Below, one piece after another: positions 1 to 6,090 of a stretch of DNA of 6,090 nt. Both the position numbers and the translations under genes were made by a program. The stretch is from Escherichia phage Lilleven, in sequence record MK629527.1. One strand, 5' to 3'. The notes below the pieces were generated by a model. It saw nothing but the letters and a program-made list of their open reading frames with translations. It was not told the DNA's origin and ran no database searches. How positions within the stretch are numbered: the first letter of the stretch is position 1; the number at the start of each line of letters is the position of its first letter.

Positions 1-1485
1 ATGGCTACTGAAATCTTCTCTGATGTTGTTAAGTCTGTTTGGTCGCACGCTACGGCTAAGCATGCTCATCTTCGTATGGCTGTTCAGGTTGATAATCGTA
101 GCCGCCTTCTTTCTGACCTCGTTTATCAGTTGGAAAAACGCCTTTCTGAAGAGACTCATTTGGATGGCGATATTTTTGCCGTTTATGAATCTCAGACCGC
201 CCTTCTGGAAGACCATATGGCATTGGTTCGGAAGTGTGCAGCCCAACTTGATAATAGTAACACTATAGACCACCGCACCTCCTTGGATGCCGAATGTGTT
301 TTCCTGTTTGAGATGATTTGTCCAGGTGTTCGTTACGGTAAAACGTTGAATTCTCTTTGGACTAAGTATGTCGCCCAGTGGCCTGAGAAGTTGATTCGTC
401 AGGAGTTGGATATGGTTAAGCCTTTATCCTTTAAGGATGAGGTTGCTAAGTACATGGAGAAAATGCAGGAAAAAACACGCAAGAATCGCATGACTCAGAA
501 AGTCATTAATGAGATGCGTATTGCTCACCAAAAGGGCTGGTTCTTCGTATTTGATACGTTGACCCTTGCTGATGACCGTTTGCAGGCTTTTAATGAAAAC
601 CCCAATGCTCTTCGTGATTATTTTAGGACTGTTGGTCGAGCTGTTCTGCGCGCTGAAGGTCGTTCGGTTAAAGATTCCTACAACGATTGCTATCGCTATC
701 TTTGTGTGCCGGAGTTTGGAGGTCAGCACGGCCGTCTTCATTGGCACGTTGTGCATATGGTGCGGACTCTCCCTTTGGGAAGTCACGACCCTAATTTCGG
801 TCGCAAGGTACGTAATTATCGCCAGATTAACTCGTTCCGTGGCATGTGGCCCTATGGCTTCACGCAACCGATAGCCGTTCGCTATCAGCATGACGCTTAT
901 TCCCGCAAAGGTTGGCTTTGGCCTGTTGACAAAACAGGAAAAGCAATGCAGAGTAAGCCGTATCAGGCGGTCGCATGGTATGTGACCAAGTATGTAGCTA
1001 AGCAATCTGACCAGCGTCAGAAAGCTATTACCGAGAGGCAAAAGAAATGCAAGAATCCATTAATGGCAATCTGTCTGAAGAAAGTATTTCGGGTTCGCAG
1101 CAGTCGGAAGCTTGGAATGGAGCTCCCGTCAATGGCTCACCTGAGCAACAGGGTGCTTCTGGAACTGAGCCGAATCAGTTTCGATTCCAGTCCTCTGTAT
1201 CAGATAGTGAAAGAGAACGCCAAAAAGCAATTGACCTTGAACATCGGCGCGCTGCCTTTGCACGTCATTTTGGATGTGCGCCCGGAAGTGAGAAGCATGT
1301 TGAAAACTATTCGTCGTTTGATGAAAAAGACACCCGAGTTCAATTGGCAGAGTTCTATCGCTTCAATGACGGTCACTTTAAAAAATGGGGATATTTCTGA
1401 TGAAGCACGTCAATACATTATTGATGCAGGAATTACGCCTACTGATTTGCGAGCTAAAGCTACTCAAACTTTCGGCGGTAAGTGA
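1..1485 (+). CDS. A: Replication initiation protein A (rolling-circle nicking-joining endonuclease)
   Basis: 494-aa ORF; translation is collinear with phiX174 gene A protein as I recall it (e.g. DGWFxVFDTLTLADDRLxAFxxNPNALRDYFR, VRYxxDAxSRxGWLWPVD, C-terminal ...GGK). Paired catalytic tyrosines in WYVTKYV (codons 979-981 and 991-993) and an HxH motif (GRLHWHVVH). Contains the 30-nt origin. If the molecule is circular, the upstream frame is closed by TAA at 6040-6042 with no ATG before position 1. Confidence 0.92.
   Translation: MATEIFSDVVKSVWSHATAKHAHLRMAVQVDNRSRLLSDLVYQLEKRLSEETHLDGDIFAVYESQTALLEDHMALVRKCAAQLDNSNTIDHRTSLDAECVFLFEMICPGVRYGKTLNSLWTKYVAQWPEKLIRQELDMVKPLSFKDEVAKYMEKMQEKTRKNRMTQKVINEMRIAHQKGWFFVFDTLTLADDRLQAFNENPNALRDYFRTVGRAVLRAEGRSVKDSYNDCYRYLCVPEFGGQHGRLHWHVVHMVRTLPLGSHDPNFGRKVRNYRQINSFRGMWPYGFTQPIAVRYQHDAYSRKGWLWPVDKTGKAMQSKPYQAVAWYVTKYVAKQSDQRQKAITERQKKCKNPLMAICLKKVFRVRSSRKLGMELPSMAHLSNRVLLELSRISFDSSPLYQIVKENAKKQLTLNIGALPLHVILDVRPEVRSMLKTIRRLMKKTPEFNWQSSIASMTVTLKNGDISDEARQYIIDAGITPTDLRAKATQTFGGK
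244..273 (+). other. Viral (+) strand origin of rolling-circle replication (A-protein recognition and nick site)
   Basis: CAACTTGATAATAGTAACACTATAGACCAC matches the 30-nt phiX174-group origin (CAACTTG^ATATTAATAACACTATAGACCAC) at 28 of 30 positions. Expected nick between G250 and A251. Lies inside gene A as in phiX174 and G4. Confidence 0.85.
454..1485 (+). CDS. A*: A* (in-frame internal restart product of gene A)
   Basis: In phiX-like phages A* starts at an internal in-frame Met about one third into A. ATG at 454 (MEKMQEK...) follows AAGGATGAGG (433-443) and aligns with the phiX A* start region (MKSRRGFAIQRLMNAMRQAH vs MQEKTRKNRMTQKVINEMRIAH). In-frame ATGs at 463 and 490 are alternatives; exact start not resolvable by eye. 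Confidence 0.4.
   Translation: MEKMQEKTRKNRMTQKVINEMRIAHQKGWFFVFDTLTLADDRLQAFNENPNALRDYFRTVGRAVLRAEGRSVKDSYNDCYRYLCVPEFGGQHGRLHWHVVHMVRTLPLGSHDPNFGRKVRNYRQINSFRGMWPYGFTQPIAVRYQHDAYSRKGWLWPVDKTGKAMQSKPYQAVAWYVTKYVAKQSDQRQKAITERQKKCKNPLMAICLKKVFRVRSSRKLGMELPSMAHLSNRVLLELSRISFDSSPLYQIVKENAKKQLTLNIGALPLHVILDVRPEVRSMLKTIRRLMKKTPEFNWQSSIASMTVTLKNGDISDEARQYIIDAGITPTDLRAKATQTFGGK
1047..1400 (+). CDS. B: Internal scaffolding protein B (encoded within A in an alternative frame)
   Basis: 117-aa ORF inside A. C-terminal half resembles phiX174 B (..AEFYRFNDGHFKKWGYF vs phiX ..AEFYRFHDAEVNTFGYF); Gln/Glu/Ser-rich N-terminus. SD GAGG at 1035-1038, 8 nt before ATG 1047. Confidence 0.85.
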   Translation: MQESINGNLSEESISGSQQSEAWNGAPVNGSPEQQGASGTEPNQFRFQSSVSDSERERQKAIDLEHRRAAFARHFGCAPGSEKHVENYSSFDEKDTRVQLAEFYRFNDGHFKKWGYF

Positions 1486-2273: not shown

Positions 2274-2277
2274 TTAT

Positions 2278-2293
2278 GGCCTTCGGGCCTTTT
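2278..2293 (+). terminator. J-F intergenic hairpin (GGCC-UUCG-GGCC) followed by TTTT; weak terminator or mRNA-stability element
   Basis: 4-bp G/C stem 2278-2281/2286-2289 with TTCG tetraloop 2282-2285, then TTTT 2290-2293, immediately upstream of the F SD AAGGA (2294-2298). The position matches the leaky T_J terminator of phiX-like phages. Confidence 0.45.
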
Positions 2294-2304
2294 AAGGATT
2301 ATTA

Positions 2305-3600
2305 ATGTCTAATGTACAAACTTCTGCTGAACGTGAAATTGTTGACCTTTCTCATCTTGCCTTTGACTGTGGCATGATTGGTCGTTTGAAAACTGTTTCA
2401 TGGACTCCTGTTATTGCTGGCGATTCCTTTGAGCTTGATGCTGTTGGTGCTTTGCGTCTTTCTCCTCTGCGTCGTGGTTTAGCCATTGACTCTAAGGTTG
2501 ATTTTTTCACTTTTTATATTCCGCATCGCCATGTTTATGGTGACCAGTGGATTAATTTTATGCGTGATGGTGTTGATGCCACGCCACTTCCTTCCGTTAC
2601 TACTACTCAGTATCCGGATGACGCTGGTTATGTTGGTACTATTGTTCCTAAGAGCAACCGTATTCCTAAGTTTCTGCATCAGTCTTATCTGAATATTTAT
2701 AATAACTATTTCCGTGCGCCGTGGATGCCTGAGCGTACTGAAGCCAATCCTTCAAATTTAGACCGTGATGATTCTCGTTTTGGATTCCGTTGCTGCCATC
2801 TTAAAACTATTTGGTCCGCTCCTCTTCCTCCGGAAACTAAGCTCGCTGAGCAAATGGGCATTGAAAGCAATTCCATTGATATTATGGGTTTGCAGGCCGC
2901 TTATGCGCAGCTTCATACTGAGCAGGAGCGTACTTATTTCATGCAGCGTTATCGTGATGTTATCTCCAGCTTTGGCGGTTCAACCTCCTATGATGCCGAT
3001 AACCGACCGTTGCTTGTTATGCATACCGACTTCTGGGCTTCCGGTTACGATGTTGATGGTACCGACCAATCTTCTCTCGGACAGTTCTCAGGTCGAGTTC
3101 AGCAGACGTTTAAACATTCAGTGCCGCGATTCTTCGTGCCTGAGCATGGTGTCATGATGACTTTGATGCTGGTTCGCTTTCCGCCTATCAGTCCTTTGGA
3201 GCATCATTATCTTGTTGGTCGTAATAATTTGACCTATACCGACCTCGCAGGTGACCCGGCTTTGATTGGTAATTTGCCGCCACGTGAGATTTCTTATCAG
3301 GACCTTTTCCGTGATGGTCGCCCGGGCATTAAGATTAAGGTTGCCGAGTCTATCTGGTATCGTACTCATCCGGATTATATTAACTACAAGTATCATTTAC
3401 TTGAAGGTTTTCCGTTCCTTGATGATGCACCCGGCACGACTAGTGGTGATGATCTTCAGAAGGCTATTCTTATTGACCATAATGACTATAATGCCTGTTT
3501 CCAGTCCCAGCAGTTGCTTCAGTGGAATAATCAGGCTCGTTATAATGTTAATGTTTATCGTCATATTCCTACTGTTCGTGATTCTATTATGACCTCTTGA
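2305..3600 (+). CDS. F: Major capsid protein F
   Basis: 431-aa ORF. Extensive identity to phiX174 F as recalled (PVIAGDSFE.DAVGALRLSPLRRGLAIDS.VD.FTFY.PHRHVYG, QRYRDVISSFGG.TSYDADNRPLLVM, SLGQFSGRVQQT.KHSVPRFFVPEHG, C-terminal TRDSIMTS). SD AAGGA 2294-2298. Confidence 0.95.
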   Translation: MSNVQTSAEREIVDLSHLAFDCGMIGRLKTVSWTPVIAGDSFELDAVGALRLSPLRRGLAIDSKVDFFTFYIPHRHVYGDQWINFMRDGVDATPLPSVTTTQYPDDAGYVGTIVPKSNRIPKFLHQSYLNIYNNYFRAPWMPERTEANPSNLDRDDSRFGFRCCHLKTIWSAPLPPETKLAEQMGIESNSIDIMGLQAAYAQLHTEQERTYFMQRYRDVISSFGGSTSYDADNRPLLVMHTDFWASGYDVDGTDQSSLGQFSGRVQQTFKHSVPRFFVPEHGVMMTLMLVRFPPISPLEHHYLVGRNNLTYTDLAGDPALIGNLPPREISYQDLFRDGRPGIKIKVAESIWYRTHPDYINYKYHLLEGFPFLDDAPGTTSGDDLQKAILIDHNDYNACFQSQQLLQWNNQARYNVNVYRHIPTVRDSIMTS

Positions 3601-3603
3601 TTT

Positions 3604-3621
3604 ATGGGCCTTCGGGCCCAT
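3604..3621 (+). terminator. F-G intergenic hairpin (7-bp stem, UUCG tetraloop); weak terminator or mRNA-stability element
   Basis: ATGGGCC (3604-3610) pairs with GGCCCAT (3615-3621) around TTCG (3611-3614), followed by TTAAGGATTTTTC carrying the G SD. Same module as at J-F. Not followed by a clean T-run, so terminator function is uncertain. Confidence 0.45.
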
Positions 3622-3633
3622 TAAGGATTTTTC

Positions 3634-4197
3634 ATGTATCAAAATTTTGTTACTAAGCACGATACCGCTATTCAGACCTCCCGTTTCTCTGTTACTGACA
3701 GTATCACTCCTGTTGCGCCTACTGGTGATATCCCTATTATCAATACTGGTAATATTACTGCTGAGCGTGCTGTTGTTAGTCTTTATGCTAATTTGGCCGC
3801 TGACACCTCTTCTGATGGTTCTTTTATTGTTGCTATGAAGGTTGATACTTCTCCTGCTGATCCTAACTGTGTTATCTCTGCTGGTGTTAACCTTAGCTTT
3901 GCTGGTACCTCATACCCGATTGTTGGCATTGTTCGTTTTGAGTCTGCTTCTGAACAGCCCACTTCTATTGCTGGTAGTCAGATTGAGCGTTACCCTATTG
4001 AAATGTCTGTGGGCTCTGGTGGTGTCTGTTCTGCTCGTGATTGCGTTACTGTTGATATTCATCCTCGCACCTTTGGCAATAATGTTTTTGTTGGTGTGAT
4101 TTGCTCCAGTGCTAAATGGACCTCCGGCCTTGTGCTTGGTACTATCGCTACGACTCAGGTTATTCATGAGTATCAGGTTCTTCAGCCGCTCAAATAA
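3634..4197 (+). CDS. G: Major spike protein G
   Basis: 187-aa ORF at the position of G. Shares the conserved C-terminal region with phiX174 G (VRFES.S..PT.....YP, KDCVT.D..PRT.GNNV.VG, C-terminal QVI.E...LQPLK). SD AAGGA 3623-3627, 6 nt before ATG. Confidence 0.93.
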
Positions 4198-4332
4198 AAG
4201 GCCACCGCACCCCCGGTTATGTGTCTGCCCAGTGTAGGGTGGACCGAGCCGTACGGAGATACCCGATAAACTAGGAACGTGGAAGGCGTTAGCCGCCTTC
4301 CCTCCTGCTAAGCCCAAAAAGGAGCTTACAAT
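4198..4332 (+). other. G-H intergenic region: G+C-rich structured spacer, candidate complementary-strand (primase-dependent) origin
   Basis: 135-nt untranslated spacer, visibly more G+C-rich than the flanking genes. Contains CCACC/GGTGG complementarity (4202-4206 vs 4238-4242), the palindrome CCGTACGG (4249-4256), an 8-bp hairpin (4281-4301), and the H SD AAGGAG (4319-4324). Assigning it as the minus-strand origin rests on analogy with G4-type origins and an uncertain recollection of older alpha3/St-1 work. Confidence 0.35.
4281..4301 (+). terminator. Hairpin in G-H spacer (possible T_G-like leaky terminator or origin stem-loop)
   Basis: GGAAGGCG (4281-4288), loop TTAGC, CGCCTTCC (4294-4301); perfect 8-bp stem. 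No T-run follows, so function is ambiguous. Confidence 0.35.
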
Positions 4333-5331
4333 ATGTTTGGAAGTATCATTGGAGGCATTGGCTCATCGCTGCTCGGAGGACTTGCTTCCGGCGGTATCTC
4401 CAGCCTCCTTAATAAAATGTTCAGTAAAATGCCAGAACATGCCGCTTCTTCTGCTGGTCTTACTAATGGTCAAGGTACTATTGGTATGGATACTGATGCT
4501 GGTATTCAGTCTGCTATTCAGGGCTCTAATGTTCCTCCTGCTGGTCAATTACCCGCTTCCAACACTTCTGGTGTTATGGCTGATGCTGGTAATATGATTC
4601 GTAATGCTGGCAGAGCTTTGCTTGATGGTACGATTCAGGCCGGTTCTGACAAGGTTAAAGAGGCTCTTATTGATAAGTTGGTTGGAGGTAATGATGCTAA
4701 AGACCGAGGAAAGGCAACCCGTGATTACTTGGCGGCAGCTTTCCCTGAGCTCAACCCATGGGAACGTGCTGGAGCTGGTGCTTCCACTGCCGGGTTAGAA
4801 TCTTCTGCTCAGAATCAACAAAAAGAGATGCTTAAAATGCAACTGGATAACCAGAAAGATATTGCAAAAATGCAGATGGATAACAATTTGCAGATTGCTG
4901 GTATTCAGTCTGCTACATCTCGCCAGAACACGAAGGATTCTGTTTATGCCCAGAATGAGATGCTTCAGTATAATCAACGTGAGTCGCAGGCACGCGTTGC
5001 GTCTATCCTCGCCAACACTGACCTTACGACTAAGCAGGCCACCCATGAAATTATGAGGATGGCTCTTACTCGTGCTCAGGAAACCGGTCAGCATTTGACT
5101 AACTCTCAGATTATGGCTTTGGAGAAAAAGGTTTATGCAGAAATTGGAAAAATTCATCAAGATACTCAAAATTCTCGCTATGGTAGCTCTCAAGTTACTG
5201 CCGCCGCGAAAGACGTTACTAACATGATTACTGACGCTTCTTCAGGTTTTGCTGATTGGGCTTCCCAGCAGTGGAATTCGTTCTTTAAAGATGGTAAGTC
5301 TGACGGTATTCCTCTCAATACTAGAAAATAA
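4333..5331 (+). CDS. H: DNA pilot (minor spike) protein H
   Basis: 332-aa ORF. Gly-rich N-terminus MFGSIIGGIGSSLLGG.. and long collinear matches to phiX174 H (AGIQSAIQGSNVP, TRDYLAAAFPELN.WERAGA, KMQLDNQK.IA.MQ, IAGIQSATSRQNTKD.VYAQNEML.Y.Q.ES.ARVASI, QNSRYGSS). SD AAGGAG 4319-4324. Confidence 0.93.
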   Translation: MFGSIIGGIGSSLLGGLASGGISSLLNKMFSKMPEHAASSAGLTNGQGTIGMDTDAGIQSAIQGSNVPPAGQLPASNTSGVMADAGNMIRNAGRALLDGTIQAGSDKVKEALIDKLVGGNDAKDRGKATRDYLAAAFPELNPWERAGAGASTAGLESSAQNQQKEMLKMQLDNQKDIAKMQMDNNLQIAGIQSATSRQNTKDSVYAQNEMLQYNQRESQARVASILANTDLTTKQATHEIMRMALTRAQETGQHLTNSQIMALEKKVYAEIGKIHQDTQNSRYGSSQVTAAAKDVTNMITDASSGFADWASQQWNSFFKDGKSDGIPLNTRK

Positions 5332-5358
5332 TTGTTGACATTCCTTGAACCTTTATGT

Positions 5359-5396
5359 GACTCTTGCTTCAATAAAACGAAGTAGGAGTCTTTTTT
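5359..5396 (+). terminator. Rho-independent terminator-like hairpin downstream of H; 3' arm contains the SD of the next ORF
   Basis: GACTCTTGCTTC (5359-5370) pairs with GAAGTAGGAGTC (5379-5390): 12 bp including two G.U pairs, loop AATAAAAC, followed by TTTTTT (5391-5396). The 3' arm contains AGGAG (5384-5388) and the ORF ATG follows at 5397. A perfect -35 hexamer TTGACA sits at 5335-5340. Confidence 0.6.
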
Positions 5397-5765
5397 ATGA
5401 AACCCGCTCACCGCCTTTATCATCCTGTGCTTGGTTCTTGGTTGTTTAAGTGTCCCGTTTATATTCGTTATGAGTCCCTTCATCATGGCCGCCTCATTAA
5501 GGTTCGTGCTGTTCGTGACCTTTCTCCGCGTCAGCAGTTGATTGCCAATCCTAAAAATTGCTTTGACGTTGTTATTGCTGAAATTGACGTTACTCACCTT
5601 TCTGTCACTTGGTATGATTTTCAAGCCGAAGAGTATGTCGAGTGTGATTCCGGCACTATGGAGCTTCTTCTTTCTCAGGTAAATTCTGGCGAGGTTATTC
5701 GCTCCTCCGAAGACCTGTTTGTTGATGTTGATGATATGGAATGGCTTTATGAAATTGTGGAGTAA
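5397..5765 (+). CDS. Hypothetical protein (122 aa) in the H-A intergenic region; no recognisable family
   Basis: ORF with SD AGGAG (5384-5388) 8 nt before ATG. Codon usage by eye matches the phage's structural genes (T-ending codons cgt, gtt, ctt, tct, gct, gat). Same strand as all known genes. Translation MKPAHRLYHPVLGSW...DVDDMEWLYEIVE has an acidic C-terminus and no motif I recognise. Confidence 0.5.
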   Translation: MKPAHRLYHPVLGSWLFKCPVYIRYESLHHGRLIKVRAVRDLSPRQQLIANPKNCFDVVIAEIDVTHLSVTWYDFQAEEYVECDSGTMELLLSQVNSGEVIRSSEDLFVDVDDMEWLYEIVE

Positions 5766-5768
5766 GTC

Positions 5769-5858
5769 ATGGAAACTGTTATTGGAAAATTTATTGCTCT
5801 GGCCGTTGTTGCTCTTATGCTGTATGGAATTTCTCGCTTGATTCGGAGGTTCCCGTGA
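5769..5858 (+). CDS. Hypothetical small membrane peptide (29 aa, single predicted transmembrane helix)
   Basis: Not in the ORF track. ATG 5769 is 3 nt after the stop of the preceding ORF and 6 nt after GGAG (5759-5762). METVIGKFIALAVVALMLYGISRLIRRFP: about 17 hydrophobic residues followed by a basic tail. Very short, so chance is not excluded. Confidence 0.3.
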   Translation: METVIGKFIALAVVALMLYGISRLIRRFP

Positions 5859-6031
5859 AATATTTTAGTTTTGTAGATGAACATTATGCTTACTGCCCTG
5901 ATACAAGGATTTTGCACATCACTCGCAGTCGTATTTCTGACCCTCGGTATGAGCGTTGCTTTCTTACTGACGAGGAGCATCTTGCACTTTTGGATTGGTT
6001 GAAAAATTATCCAACTTTCATTAATTCTTGA
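5855..6031 (+). CDS. Hypothetical protein (58 aa), GTG start overlapping the upstream stop (GTGA)
   Basis: Not in the ORF track. GTG 5855 overlaps the TGA of the 29-codon ORF, with GGAGG (5845-5849) 5 nt upstream. Translation (M)KYFSFVDEHYAYCPDTRILHITRSRISDPRYERCFLTDEEHLALLDWLKNYPTFINS; T-ending codon bias like the rest of the genome. Stop TGA 6029-6031 overlaps the -35 hexamer of the promoter before A. Confidence 0.35.
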   Translation: MKYFSFVDEHYAYCPDTRILHITRSRISDPRYERCFLTDEEHLALLDWLKNYPTFINS

Positions 6032-6057
6032 CAGACCTTTAAAATACCCTCTATATT
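6028..6057 (+). promoter_or_regulatory. Candidate sigma70 promoter for gene A (P_A)
   Basis: TTGACA (6028-6033), 18-nt spacer, TATATT (6052-6057): consensus -35 and near-consensus -10. Located about 35-60 nt upstream of the gene A ATG if the window is circular (position 6090 joins position 1). Confidence 0.55.
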
Positions 6058-6087
6058 GCCCTCATAGTTTCACTACGAGGGCTTTTT
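6058..6087 (+). terminator. Terminator-like hairpin plus T5 between the P_A -10 and the A start codon (T_H-like)
   Basis: GCCCTC (6058-6063) pairs with GAGGGC (6077-6082), plus inner TAG/CTA pairs (6065-6067 vs 6073-6075), then TTTTT (6083-6087). The 3' arm contains GAGGG, the likely SD for A. The 5' arm starts right after the -10, so P_A-initiated transcripts would probably lack it. Confidence 0.5.
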
Positions 6088-6090
6088 CGC

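What the first reader, a model, noticed from the sequence alone, without database searches (positions are those of the whole stretch)
4198..4332. G+C-rich structured G-H spacer: candidate complementary-strand origin
This 135-nt spacer stands out in a T-rich genome for its G+C content and dense self-complementarity (CCACC/GGTGG, CCGTACGG palindrome, perfect 8-bp hairpin at 4281-4301). Microviruses need a site on the packaged + strand where host priming begins. G4-type phages use a hairpin-rich primase-dependent origin in an intergenic spacer, whereas phiX174 uses a PriA assembly site in F-G. Here the F-G spacer is only 33 nt, so this is the best candidate. I am not certain of the published location for alpha3-group phages; it could alternatively lie in H-A.
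Basis: partly seen in the sequence, partly recalled or inferred. Interest (0 to 1): 0.5.

Follow-up and report, generated by a model that had tools for sequence, protein, structure and literature searches.

The report
Known primase-dependent complementary-strand origin

Summary
The window is a complete Alphatrevirus genome, 95% identical to St-1. Positions 4198-4332 are the G-H spacer, and it is the most G+C-rich 135-nt stretch of the genome. It holds the genome's only perfect 8-bp hairpin (4281-4301).

The spacer aligns end to end with the phage G4 F-G spacer. The G4 GenBank record annotates the primer RNA and the complementary-strand origin there. Shared features are:
- hairpin I, with one compensatory pair change;
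- an invariant CTG start triplet (4305-4307), 3 nt after the hairpin in both phages;
- the flank CT(A/T)AAGCC;
- a 5' stem kept through two further compensatory changes.

The spacer is a conservation island. It is 87-92% identical in relatives whose flanking G and H sequences are only 61-66% identical. The loop motif GCGTTAGC is the one published for hairpin I of the St-1 and alpha3 origins.

Three points do not hold. G4 stem-loop II is not conserved here. The CCGTACGG palindrome is neither foldable nor conserved. Only hairpin I folds better than shuffled sequence.

Interest is low. Related copies on small E. coli plasmids were seen in passing.

The parts
4198..4332 (+). G-H intergenic spacer: the complementary-strand (minus) origin module plus the ribosome-binding site of gene H. 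It acts as ssDNA on the packaged + strand.
   Evidence: ORF ends. End-to-end alignment with the annotated G4 origin spacer. It is the only significant G4-origin match in the window (E = 7e-16). Conservation island: 87-92% identity against 61-66% in the flanking genes.
4200..4245 (+). 5' conserved domain, homologous to G4 stem-loop III. The long-range stem pairs 4200-4206 (GGCCACC) with 4238-4245 (GGTGG-A-CC), with A4243 bulged. A competing local hairpin pairs 4225-4230 (CTGCCC) with 4237-4242 (GGGTGG).
   Evidence: Two pairs show changes on both sides. Columns 16/54 change C-G to T-A in alpha3, ID32, WA13 and WA45. Columns 17/53 change G-C to A-T in the window (A4204/T4240) and NC28. The local hairpin is also 99% paired, through wobble changes. 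The two are nearly isoenergetic here (-5.4 vs -6.7 kcal/mol). In G4 the long-range stem clearly wins (-12.5 vs -5.0).
4246..4280 (+). Middle segment: a conserved unpaired block CGGAGATACCCGA (4254-4266), then a variable linker (4267-4280). It occupies the position of G4 stem-loop II but has no stable hairpin.
   Evidence: The G4 stem II pairs (columns 67-72/82-87) are kept at only 1 of 6 positions, plus one G-T, in all Alphatrevirus sequences. The fold of 4244-4285 is -1.5 kcal/mol, z = +1.09. Only a 3-bp CGG/CCG pairing is predicted.
4281..4301 (+). Hairpin I: GGAAGGCG-TTAGC-CGCCTTCC, an 8-bp stem with a 5-nt loop. The first ~21 nt of primer RNA after the leader are copied from this template.
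   Evidence: 100% complementary. z = -4.24. 100% paired in 19/19 sequences, with A-T here and C-G in the G4 group at columns 97/111. Same stem length and loop length as G4 3972-3992.
4286..4293 (+). GCGTTAGC 'mini-hairpin' motif inside hairpin I.
   Evidence: Single occurrence in the window. PMC13037366 reports this motif for hairpin I of St-1 and alpha3, in place of G4's GCGAAAGC.
4305..4307 (+). 5'-CTG-3' primase initiation triplet. The first primer nucleotide (A) is predicted opposite T4306.
   Evidence: Invariant in 19/19 origins. It lies 3 nt 3' of hairpin I, as in G4, where CTG is 3996-3998 and the annotated primer ends at T3997. PMC6783573 states that priming starts at the T of the CTG 3' of the stem-loops.
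4279..4306 (+). Predicted template of a full-length 28-nt primer RNA, 5'-AGGAGGGAAGGCGGCUAACGCCUUCCAC-3'. This is inferred by register with G4 3970-3997.
   Evidence: G4 record annotation, alignment register, sequence. Not tested experimentally.
4308..4315 (+). Conserved 3' flank CTAAGCCC (G4: CAAAGCC).
   Evidence: Columns 121-127 are nearly invariant across both phage groups and in the plasmid relatives.
4319..4324 (+). AAGGAG Shine-Dalgarno sequence of gene H, 8 nt before ATG 4333.
   Evidence: Sequence. The alpha3 record M25640 annotates a ribosome_binding_site for H at 194-199, ending 8 nt before the H start codon. This is the least conserved end of the spacer.

Best explanation
The G-H spacer is this phage's origin of complementary-strand (SS to RF) DNA synthesis. 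It is of the G4/St-1/phiK/alpha3 type, which needs only host SSB and DnaG primase.

Proposed mechanism:
1. After the + strand enters the cell, SSB coats it.
2. Hairpin I (4281-4301) and the 5' stem (4200-4245) resist SSB. They leave defined SSB-free DNA around the CTG at 4305-4307.
3. DnaG binds there and starts an RNA primer opposite T4306.
4. DnaG copies back through hairpin I for up to about 28 nt. The predicted primer is 5'-AGGAGGGAAGGCGGCUAACGCCUUCCAC.
5. DNA polymerase III holoenzyme extends the primer around the circle.

Shown here: homology, conserved anatomy, covariation and purifying selection. Inferred from G4 biochemistry: the protein requirements, the start point and the primer length. 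The 3' end of the spacer also carries the ribosome-binding site of gene H.
For: 1. Homology to an annotated, experimentally defined origin. The alignment with G4 3884-4019 has 84% mean column identity in the four-sequence alignment, blastn E = 7e-16, and 70-74% global pairwise identity. The G4 record annotates the primer at 3970-3997 and the rep_origin at 3998.
2. Every sequence-level landmark of the G4 start site is kept in register. These are the 8-bp hairpin I with a 5-nt loop, the invariant CTG 3 nt downstream, and the flank CT(A/T)AAGCC.
3. Covariation. Three pairs change on both sides and stay paired, 11 cells in all. 0 of 500 shuffles reach the observed score, and every slid control gives 0 compensatory pairs.
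4. Selection. The spacer is 87-92% identical in ten Alphatrevirus genomes whose adjacent 240 nt of G and H are only 61-66% identical.
5. Identity with the described element. The spacer is 97.1% identical to St-1 and 96.3% to phiK. It has the same GCGTTAGC hairpin I as published for St-1 and alpha3.
6. Mechanism from the literature: SSB plus primase suffice at G4ori, initiation is at the T of CTG, and the primer is up to 28 nt (PMC6783573).
7. Three further environmental Alphatrevirus genomes carry the same module in the same G-H position.
Against: There is no experiment on this particular phage. G4 stem-loop II, one of the three stem-loops in the G4 model, has no counterpart. The stem III homologue is shorter (7 pairs instead of 9) and competes with a local hairpin of similar energy. 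SSB phasing may therefore differ from G4. Apart from hairpin I, the folding energy is no better than for shuffled sequence. From memory and not checked here: origin-deletion mutants of these phages were reported viable, which would mean that back-up priming routes exist.
Confidence: 0.93

Rival explanations
1. The spacer is mainly a gene-expression signal: an RNA hairpin that terminates or stabilises the G transcript, plus the ribosome-binding site of H. It would not be a replication element.
For: AAGGAG at 4319-4324 precedes the H start, and the alpha3 record annotates an RBS at the same distance from the H start. The other structural-gene spacers (J-F and F-G) carry GGCC-TTCG-GGCC hairpins next to an RBS.
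Against: No terminator-like site was found here, and hairpin I is followed by CCTCCTGC rather than a T run. Conservation covers about 120 nt, including unpaired blocks, while the RBS end is the most variable part. The homologous module in G4 sits in front of a different gene, between F and G, so it does not track gene H or gene G expression. A secondary RNA-level role is not excluded.
Confidence: 0.05
2. The real complementary-strand origin lies elsewhere. It could be in the long H-A region (5332-6090), or it could be a phiX174-type PriA assembly site. The G-H spacer would then be a relic.
For: The H-A region is long (759 nt) and partly non-coding, with a 12-bp hairpin at 5359-5390. The stem III homologue is weaker and stem II is missing compared with G4.
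Against: The phiX174 F-G spacer, which carries the PriA site, has no significant match anywhere in the window (best E = 0.9). The G4 origin matches only 4197-4323. A relic would not remain 87-92% identical while the neighbouring genes fall to 61-66%, and it would not accumulate compensatory changes. The 5359-5390 hairpin is followed by a T run and looks like the terminator after gene H.
Confidence: 0.02

Closest known systems
Negative-strand (complementary-strand) origins of phages St-1, phiK and alpha3 (Sims, Capon and Dressler 1979, as cited in PMC13037366)
   Same: Same genus and same G-H spacer position. 97.1%, 96.3% and 91.2% identical respectively. Same 8-bp hairpin I with GCGTTAGC, same CTG and same flanks.
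   Different: Against St-1 there are three substitutions and one fewer A in the A run. Two of the substitutions (G to A at 4204 and C to T at 4240) form a compensated pair in the 5' stem. That pair is otherwise seen only in NC28.
Phage G4 origin of complementary-strand synthesis (G4oric), F-G spacer, 3884-4019
   Same: Homologous over the full length. Shared are hairpin I (8 bp, 5-nt loop), CTG 3 nt downstream, the flank C(A/T)AAGCC, the 5' closing stem and the block CGGAGATAC. The presumed mechanism is the same: SSB plus DnaG only.
   Different: It lies between F and G, not between G and H. G4 stem-loop II (6 bp) is absent here. Stem III has 9 pairs in G4 and 7 here, and it is unambiguous only in G4. 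The loop motif is GCGAAAGC in G4 and GCGTTAGC here. One stem I pair is C-G in G4 and A-T here.
phiX174 PriA (n') primosome assembly site in its F-G spacer
   Same: Same task, priming the complementary strand on SSB-coated viral ssDNA, and likewise placed in an intergenic spacer among the structural genes. This is established knowledge and was not tested here.
   Different: No sequence similarity. The mechanism differs: PriA-dependent primosome assembly rather than direct recognition by primase.
G4-type single-strand initiation (ssi) signals of plasmids (recalled from memory: Nomura, Masai and colleagues, about 1991), and the related sequences found here on small E. coli plasmids CP057337/CP057350 and NZ_CP062859/NZ_CP062904
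   Same: 72-78% identity to the window's spacer over 100-117 nt. The 5' stem uses the T-A variant, the block AGAGATACCCG is kept, and TCCCTCCTGCTAAGCC including the CTG is identical.
   Different: The hairpin I region is rearranged (GCGAAGC core, interrupted stem) and does not fold better than shuffles. The element lies in an unannotated stretch, and in pRHB29-C22_2 it is on the strand opposite to all annotated genes. Function is untested.

Membership tests
G4-type (DnaG primase + SSB dependent) complementary-strand origin of Bullavirinae | Sequence homology to the experimentally defined G4oric | tested here: met
   Full-length alignment: blastn E = 7e-16 and 70-74% global identity, with the conserved blocks much higher. 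The G4 record annotates the primer and origin in the aligned segment.
G4-type (DnaG primase + SSB dependent) complementary-strand origin of Bullavirinae | Lies in an untranslated spacer of the packaged + strand | tested here: met
   Between the G stop (4197) and the H start (4333). All genes are on the + strand, as in the relatives.
G4-type (DnaG primase + SSB dependent) complementary-strand origin of Bullavirinae | Stem-loop I: stable G+C-rich 8-bp hairpin that is copied into the primer | tested here: met
   4281-4301, -9.4 kcal/mol, z = -4.24. 100% paired in 19/19 sequences with one compensatory pair.
G4-type (DnaG primase + SSB dependent) complementary-strand origin of Bullavirinae | 5'-CTG-3' initiation triplet just 3' of stem-loop I | tested here: met
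   CTG at 4305-4307, invariant in 19/19, 3 nt after the stem as in G4. Its role is described in PMC6783573.
G4-type (DnaG primase + SSB dependent) complementary-strand origin of Bullavirinae | Stem-loop II | tested here: not met
   The G4 pairs are kept at 1 of 6 positions in all 14 Alphatrevirus sequences. No stable fold of 4244-4285. The described St-1, phiK and alpha3 spacers lack the G4 stem II pairs in the same way, so stem II is a G4-group trait rather than a family requirement.
G4-type (DnaG primase + SSB dependent) complementary-strand origin of Bullavirinae | Stem-loop III (5' closing stem) | tested here: inconclusive
   7 of the 9 G4 pairs are kept, with two compensatory changes. However, a mutually exclusive local hairpin is equally compatible and slightly more stable here.
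G4-type (DnaG primase + SSB dependent) complementary-strand origin of Bullavirinae | Specific primer synthesis by DnaG on SSB-coated ssDNA without PriA, DnaB, DnaC or RNA polymerase | not testable with these tools
   This is biochemistry. It is inferred from G4 and from the cited St-1/phiK/alpha3 work.
phiX174-type PriA (n') primosome assembly site | Similarity to the phiX174 F-G spacer hairpin recognised by PriA | tested here: not met
   Best match anywhere in the window is 10 nt, E = 0.9.
Intrinsic transcription terminator | G+C-rich hairpin followed by a T run | tested here: not met
   No terminator-like site in 4198-4332. Hairpin I is followed by CCTCCTGCTAAG.

The most novel reading that the evidence does not exclude
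The origin could be a portable priming cassette rather than a fixed part of the microvirus backbone. The same roughly 120-nt module sits between F and G in G4-like phages and between G and H in alpha3-like phages. A diverged form (72-78% identical, CTG flank intact, hairpin I remodelled) occurs on small cryptic E. coli plasmids. This would imply exchange of a cis-acting priming signal between ssDNA phages and plasmids.

A second, weaker idea concerns the 5' domain in alpha3-like phages. It may switch between two mutually exclusive pairings, since the observed substitutions preserve both of them.
Probability: 0.2. Interest if true: 0.4.

Novelty: already known. Interest (0 to 1): 0.12.

Why it matters
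For this genome the result gives an exact annotation of the minus-strand origin, with a predicted primer start at T4306. It adds no new kind of element.

Two modest additions were found. First, independent compensatory changes support the 5' stem, and G4's stem-loop II is clearly dispensable across the Alphatrevirus group. This bears on how much structure primase and SSB really need. Second, related sequences occur on small E. coli plasmids. These could serve to study how primase-recognition signals move between replicons.

Tried and rejected
- Rfam, E-value mode on the whole window: only a chance hit (Tombus_3_IV, 4813-4878, E = 0.088, below gathering score). There is no family for this DNA element.
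- phiX174 F-G spacer against the window: no similarity, so a PriA-type site was rejected.
- Terminator scan: nothing in the spacer.
- Pattern scan of viral contigs with GGCGN{1,2}AGCCGCCNTCCNTNCTGC: 17 loci. 15 are known or environmental G4-like or alpha3-like genomes. L023 and L029 share one sequence, have no F, G or H homologues and no hairpin, and were treated as chance matches.
- CCGTACGG palindrome as a functional element: rejected, because it is not foldable and not conserved.
- Papers that would state the alpha3-group origin position directly are not held in the library. These are Sims et al. 1979, Fiddes et al. 1978 and Rokyta et al. 2006. The position therefore rests on sequence identity with the published hairpin I and on homology to the annotated G4 record.
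- PHROGs scan of the H-A region ORFs: no hits.
- Rfam on the plasmid loci: no hits.
- E. coli complete genomes: no chromosomal copy, only the two 8-kb plasmids.

Full report
**What the window is**

The 6090 bases are a complete, circularly permuted microvirus genome that starts at the ATG of gene A. It is 95.0% identical to phage St-1, 93.4% to phiK and 91.9% to alpha3, all in genus Alphatrevirus. All genes lie on the + strand. F is 2305-3600, G is 3634-4197 and H is 4333-5331.

**Checking the observation**

- The spacer is 57.0% G+C, against 44.4% (sd 4.6%) for the genome. The only 135-nt windows that reach this value start at 4171-4201, so this locus is the G+C maximum of the genome.
- As ssDNA it folds to -22.1 kcal/mol, z = -2.31 against dinucleotide shuffles. 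Only one other region, inside gene A, folds as stably.
- The structure is not uniform. Hairpin I (4281-4301) accounts for the signal (z = -4.24). The 5' part and the middle fold no better than shuffled sequence.
- A single perfect 8-bp hairpin per genome is close to the chance expectation of 0.66.
- The CCGTACGG palindrome cannot form a hairpin and varies among relatives.

**What it is**

The spacer aligns end to end with the F-G spacer of phage G4. Blastn gives E = 7e-16, and this is the only significant match to the G4 spacer in the window. The G4 GenBank record annotates 'RNA primer of replication' at 3970-3997 and 'origin of compl. strand synthesis' at 3998.

In register with those annotations the window has:
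- an 8-bp, 5-nt-loop hairpin I, GGAAGGCG-TTAGC-CGCCTTCC (G4: GGACGGCG-AAAGC-CGCCGTCC);
- a CTG at 4305-4307, 3 nt after the stem as in G4 (3996-3998);
- the flank CTAAGCC (G4: CAAAGCC).

PMC6783573 describes the G4 mechanism. SSB and DnaG primase alone suffice, synthesis starts at the T of the CTG 3' of the stem-loops, and the primer is up to 28 nt. PMC13037366, citing Sims, Capon and Dressler 1979, states that hairpin I of the St-1 and alpha3 origins has an 8-bp stem and the motif GCGTTAGC instead of G4's GCGAAAGC. GCGTTAGC occurs once in the window, at 4286-4293 inside hairpin I.

**Comparative evidence**

I aligned 19 origin spacers: 14 Alphatrevirus G-H spacers and 5 G4-group F-G spacers.
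- CTG is invariant in 19/19 sequences.
- Hairpin I is paired in 100% of cells, with one pair that is A-T in the alpha3 group and C-G in the G4 group.
- A long-range stem, homologous to the G4 5' stem, pairs window 4200-4206 with 4238-4245. It shows two more double-sided changes. One is C-G to T-A in alpha3, ID32, WA13 and WA45. The other is G-C to A-T in the window and NC28.
- No shuffle reached the observed covariation score, and sliding the partners by 1-3 columns removed all compensatory pairs.
- The spacer is a conservation island. It is 87-92% identical between the window and ten Alphatrevirus genomes whose adjacent 240 nt of G and H are only 61-66% identical.
- Three further environmental genomes carry the module in the same G-H position.

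**Differences from G4**

- G4's stem-loop II (6 bp) has no counterpart. Only 1 of its 6 pairs is kept in any Alphatrevirus sequence, and the segment does not fold.
- The 5' stem keeps 7 of G4's 9 pairs.
- In the window this stem competes with a local hairpin (4225-4230 with 4237-4242). That hairpin is also compatible with all observed substitutions, through wobble pairs, and is slightly more stable (-6.7 vs -5.4 kcal/mol). In G4 the long-range stem wins clearly (-12.5 vs -5.0).
- The module sits in a different spacer: F-G in G4-like phages and G-H here.

**Mechanism proposed**

SSB coats the incoming + strand. Hairpin I and the 5' stem exclude SSB and present the CTG. DnaG starts opposite T4306 and copies back through hairpin I. 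The predicted primer is 5'-AGGAGGGAAGGCGGCUAACGCCUUCCAC, the template is 4279-4306, and the register follows G4 3970-3997. DNA polymerase III then takes over.

Homology, anatomy, covariation and selection are shown here. The protein requirements, the start site and the primer length are inferred from G4 and from the cited work on St-1, phiK and alpha3. The last 15 nt of the spacer also hold the AAGGAG ribosome-binding site of H. The alpha3 record annotates an RBS at the same distance from the H start.

**Rivals**

- *A purely transcriptional or translational role.* This is unlikely. There is no T run after the hairpin. The RBS end is the least conserved part. In G4 the module precedes a different gene.
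- *An origin elsewhere (H-A region) or a PriA-type site.* This is unlikely. There is no similarity to the phiX174 site, and a relic would not be conserved far above the neighbouring genes.

**Comparison with what is known, and novelty**

The element belongs to the described dnaG (primase)-dependent negative-strand origins of St-1, phiK and alpha3. It is 97.1% identical to the St-1 copy. It is already known.

The only feature particular to this genome is a compensated A4204/T4240 pair. I could not read Sims et al. 1979 or the alpha3 genome paper in the held library. My recollection that they place the origin between G and H is from memory. The sequence match to the published hairpin I is a tool result.

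**Seen in passing**

Small E. coli plasmids carry a related sequence, 72-78% identical over 100-117 nt. These are CP057337/CP057350 (9653 bp) and NZ_CP062859/NZ_CP062904 (8009 bp). The stretch TCCCTCCTGCTAAGCC is identical, but the hairpin I region is remodelled and does not fold well. No E. coli chromosome has a copy. This may be a G4-type plasmid ssi signal, a class I recall from the literature but did not verify here. It was not followed further.

Noticed in passing
L038 2501-2619 (CP057337.1 1083-1201, minus strand); also CP057350.1, NZ_CP062859.1 7025-7127, NZ_CP062904.1: Small non-mobilizable E. coli plasmids (9.6 kb and 8.0 kb, from sheep and pig faeces) carry a sequence 72-78% identical to the phage origin spacer. 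TCCCTCCTGCTAAGCC, including the CTG, is identical and the 5' stem is kept. The hairpin I region is rearranged (GCGAAGC core) and folds no better than shuffles. The element lies in an unannotated stretch with no convincing ORF. In pRHB29-C22_2 it is on the strand opposite to all annotated genes. It may be a G4-type plasmid ssi signal or a decayed copy.
   Followed up: partly
window 2275-2304 and 3601-3633: The J-F and F-G spacers carry near-duplicate modules. Each has a GGCC-TTCG-GGCC hairpin followed by TTAAGGATT (the RBS) and the start codon. The stem is 4 bp before F and 7 bp (ATGGGCC/GGCCCAT, 3604-3621) before G. They are probably mRNA-stabilising or terminator hairpins fused to the ribosome-binding sites.
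   Followed up: partly
window 5332-6090: The H-A region is 759 nt long. It has a terminator-like 12-bp hairpin with a T run at 5359-5390, a near-consensus sigma-70 promoter-like site at 6028-6057 (TTGACA-18-TATATT, 11/12), and unannotated ORFs (5397-5765, 122 aa; 5855-6031, 58 aa) with no PHROG match. The St-1, phiK and alpha3 records list only the standard lettered genes (A to H, with A* in St-1) under whole-genome matches. The annotation of this region in those records was not examined.
   Followed up: partly
window 244-273: The 30-nt viral (+) strand origin recognised by protein A lies inside gene A: CAACTTGATAATAGTAACACTATAGACCAC. It is 93% identical to G4 500-529. That this 30-mer is the viral-strand origin is from general knowledge of phiX174-type phages and was not checked here. 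The two origins are about 4 kb apart.
   Followed up: no
window about 831-1045 (inside gene A): This is the only other part of the genome whose 135-nt windows fold as stably as the origin as ssDNA (down to -25.3 kcal/mol at 856). G+C is about 50%. No explanation was sought.
   Followed up: no
window 4204 and 4240: Against St-1 and phiK the window has G to A at 4204 and C to T at 4240, which are the two sides of one pair in the 5' stem. The same A-T pair occurs in the otherwise distant NC28 spacer, which suggests an independent compensatory event or recombination.
   Followed up: yes
L023 414-436 and L029 4851-4873: Two viral contigs of 5.4-5.6 kb share an identical stretch that matches the hairpin-I/CTG pattern (GGCGTAGCCGCCGTCCCTGCTGC). 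They have no 5' hairpin arm and no F, G or H homologues. Judged a chance match.
   Followed up: partly
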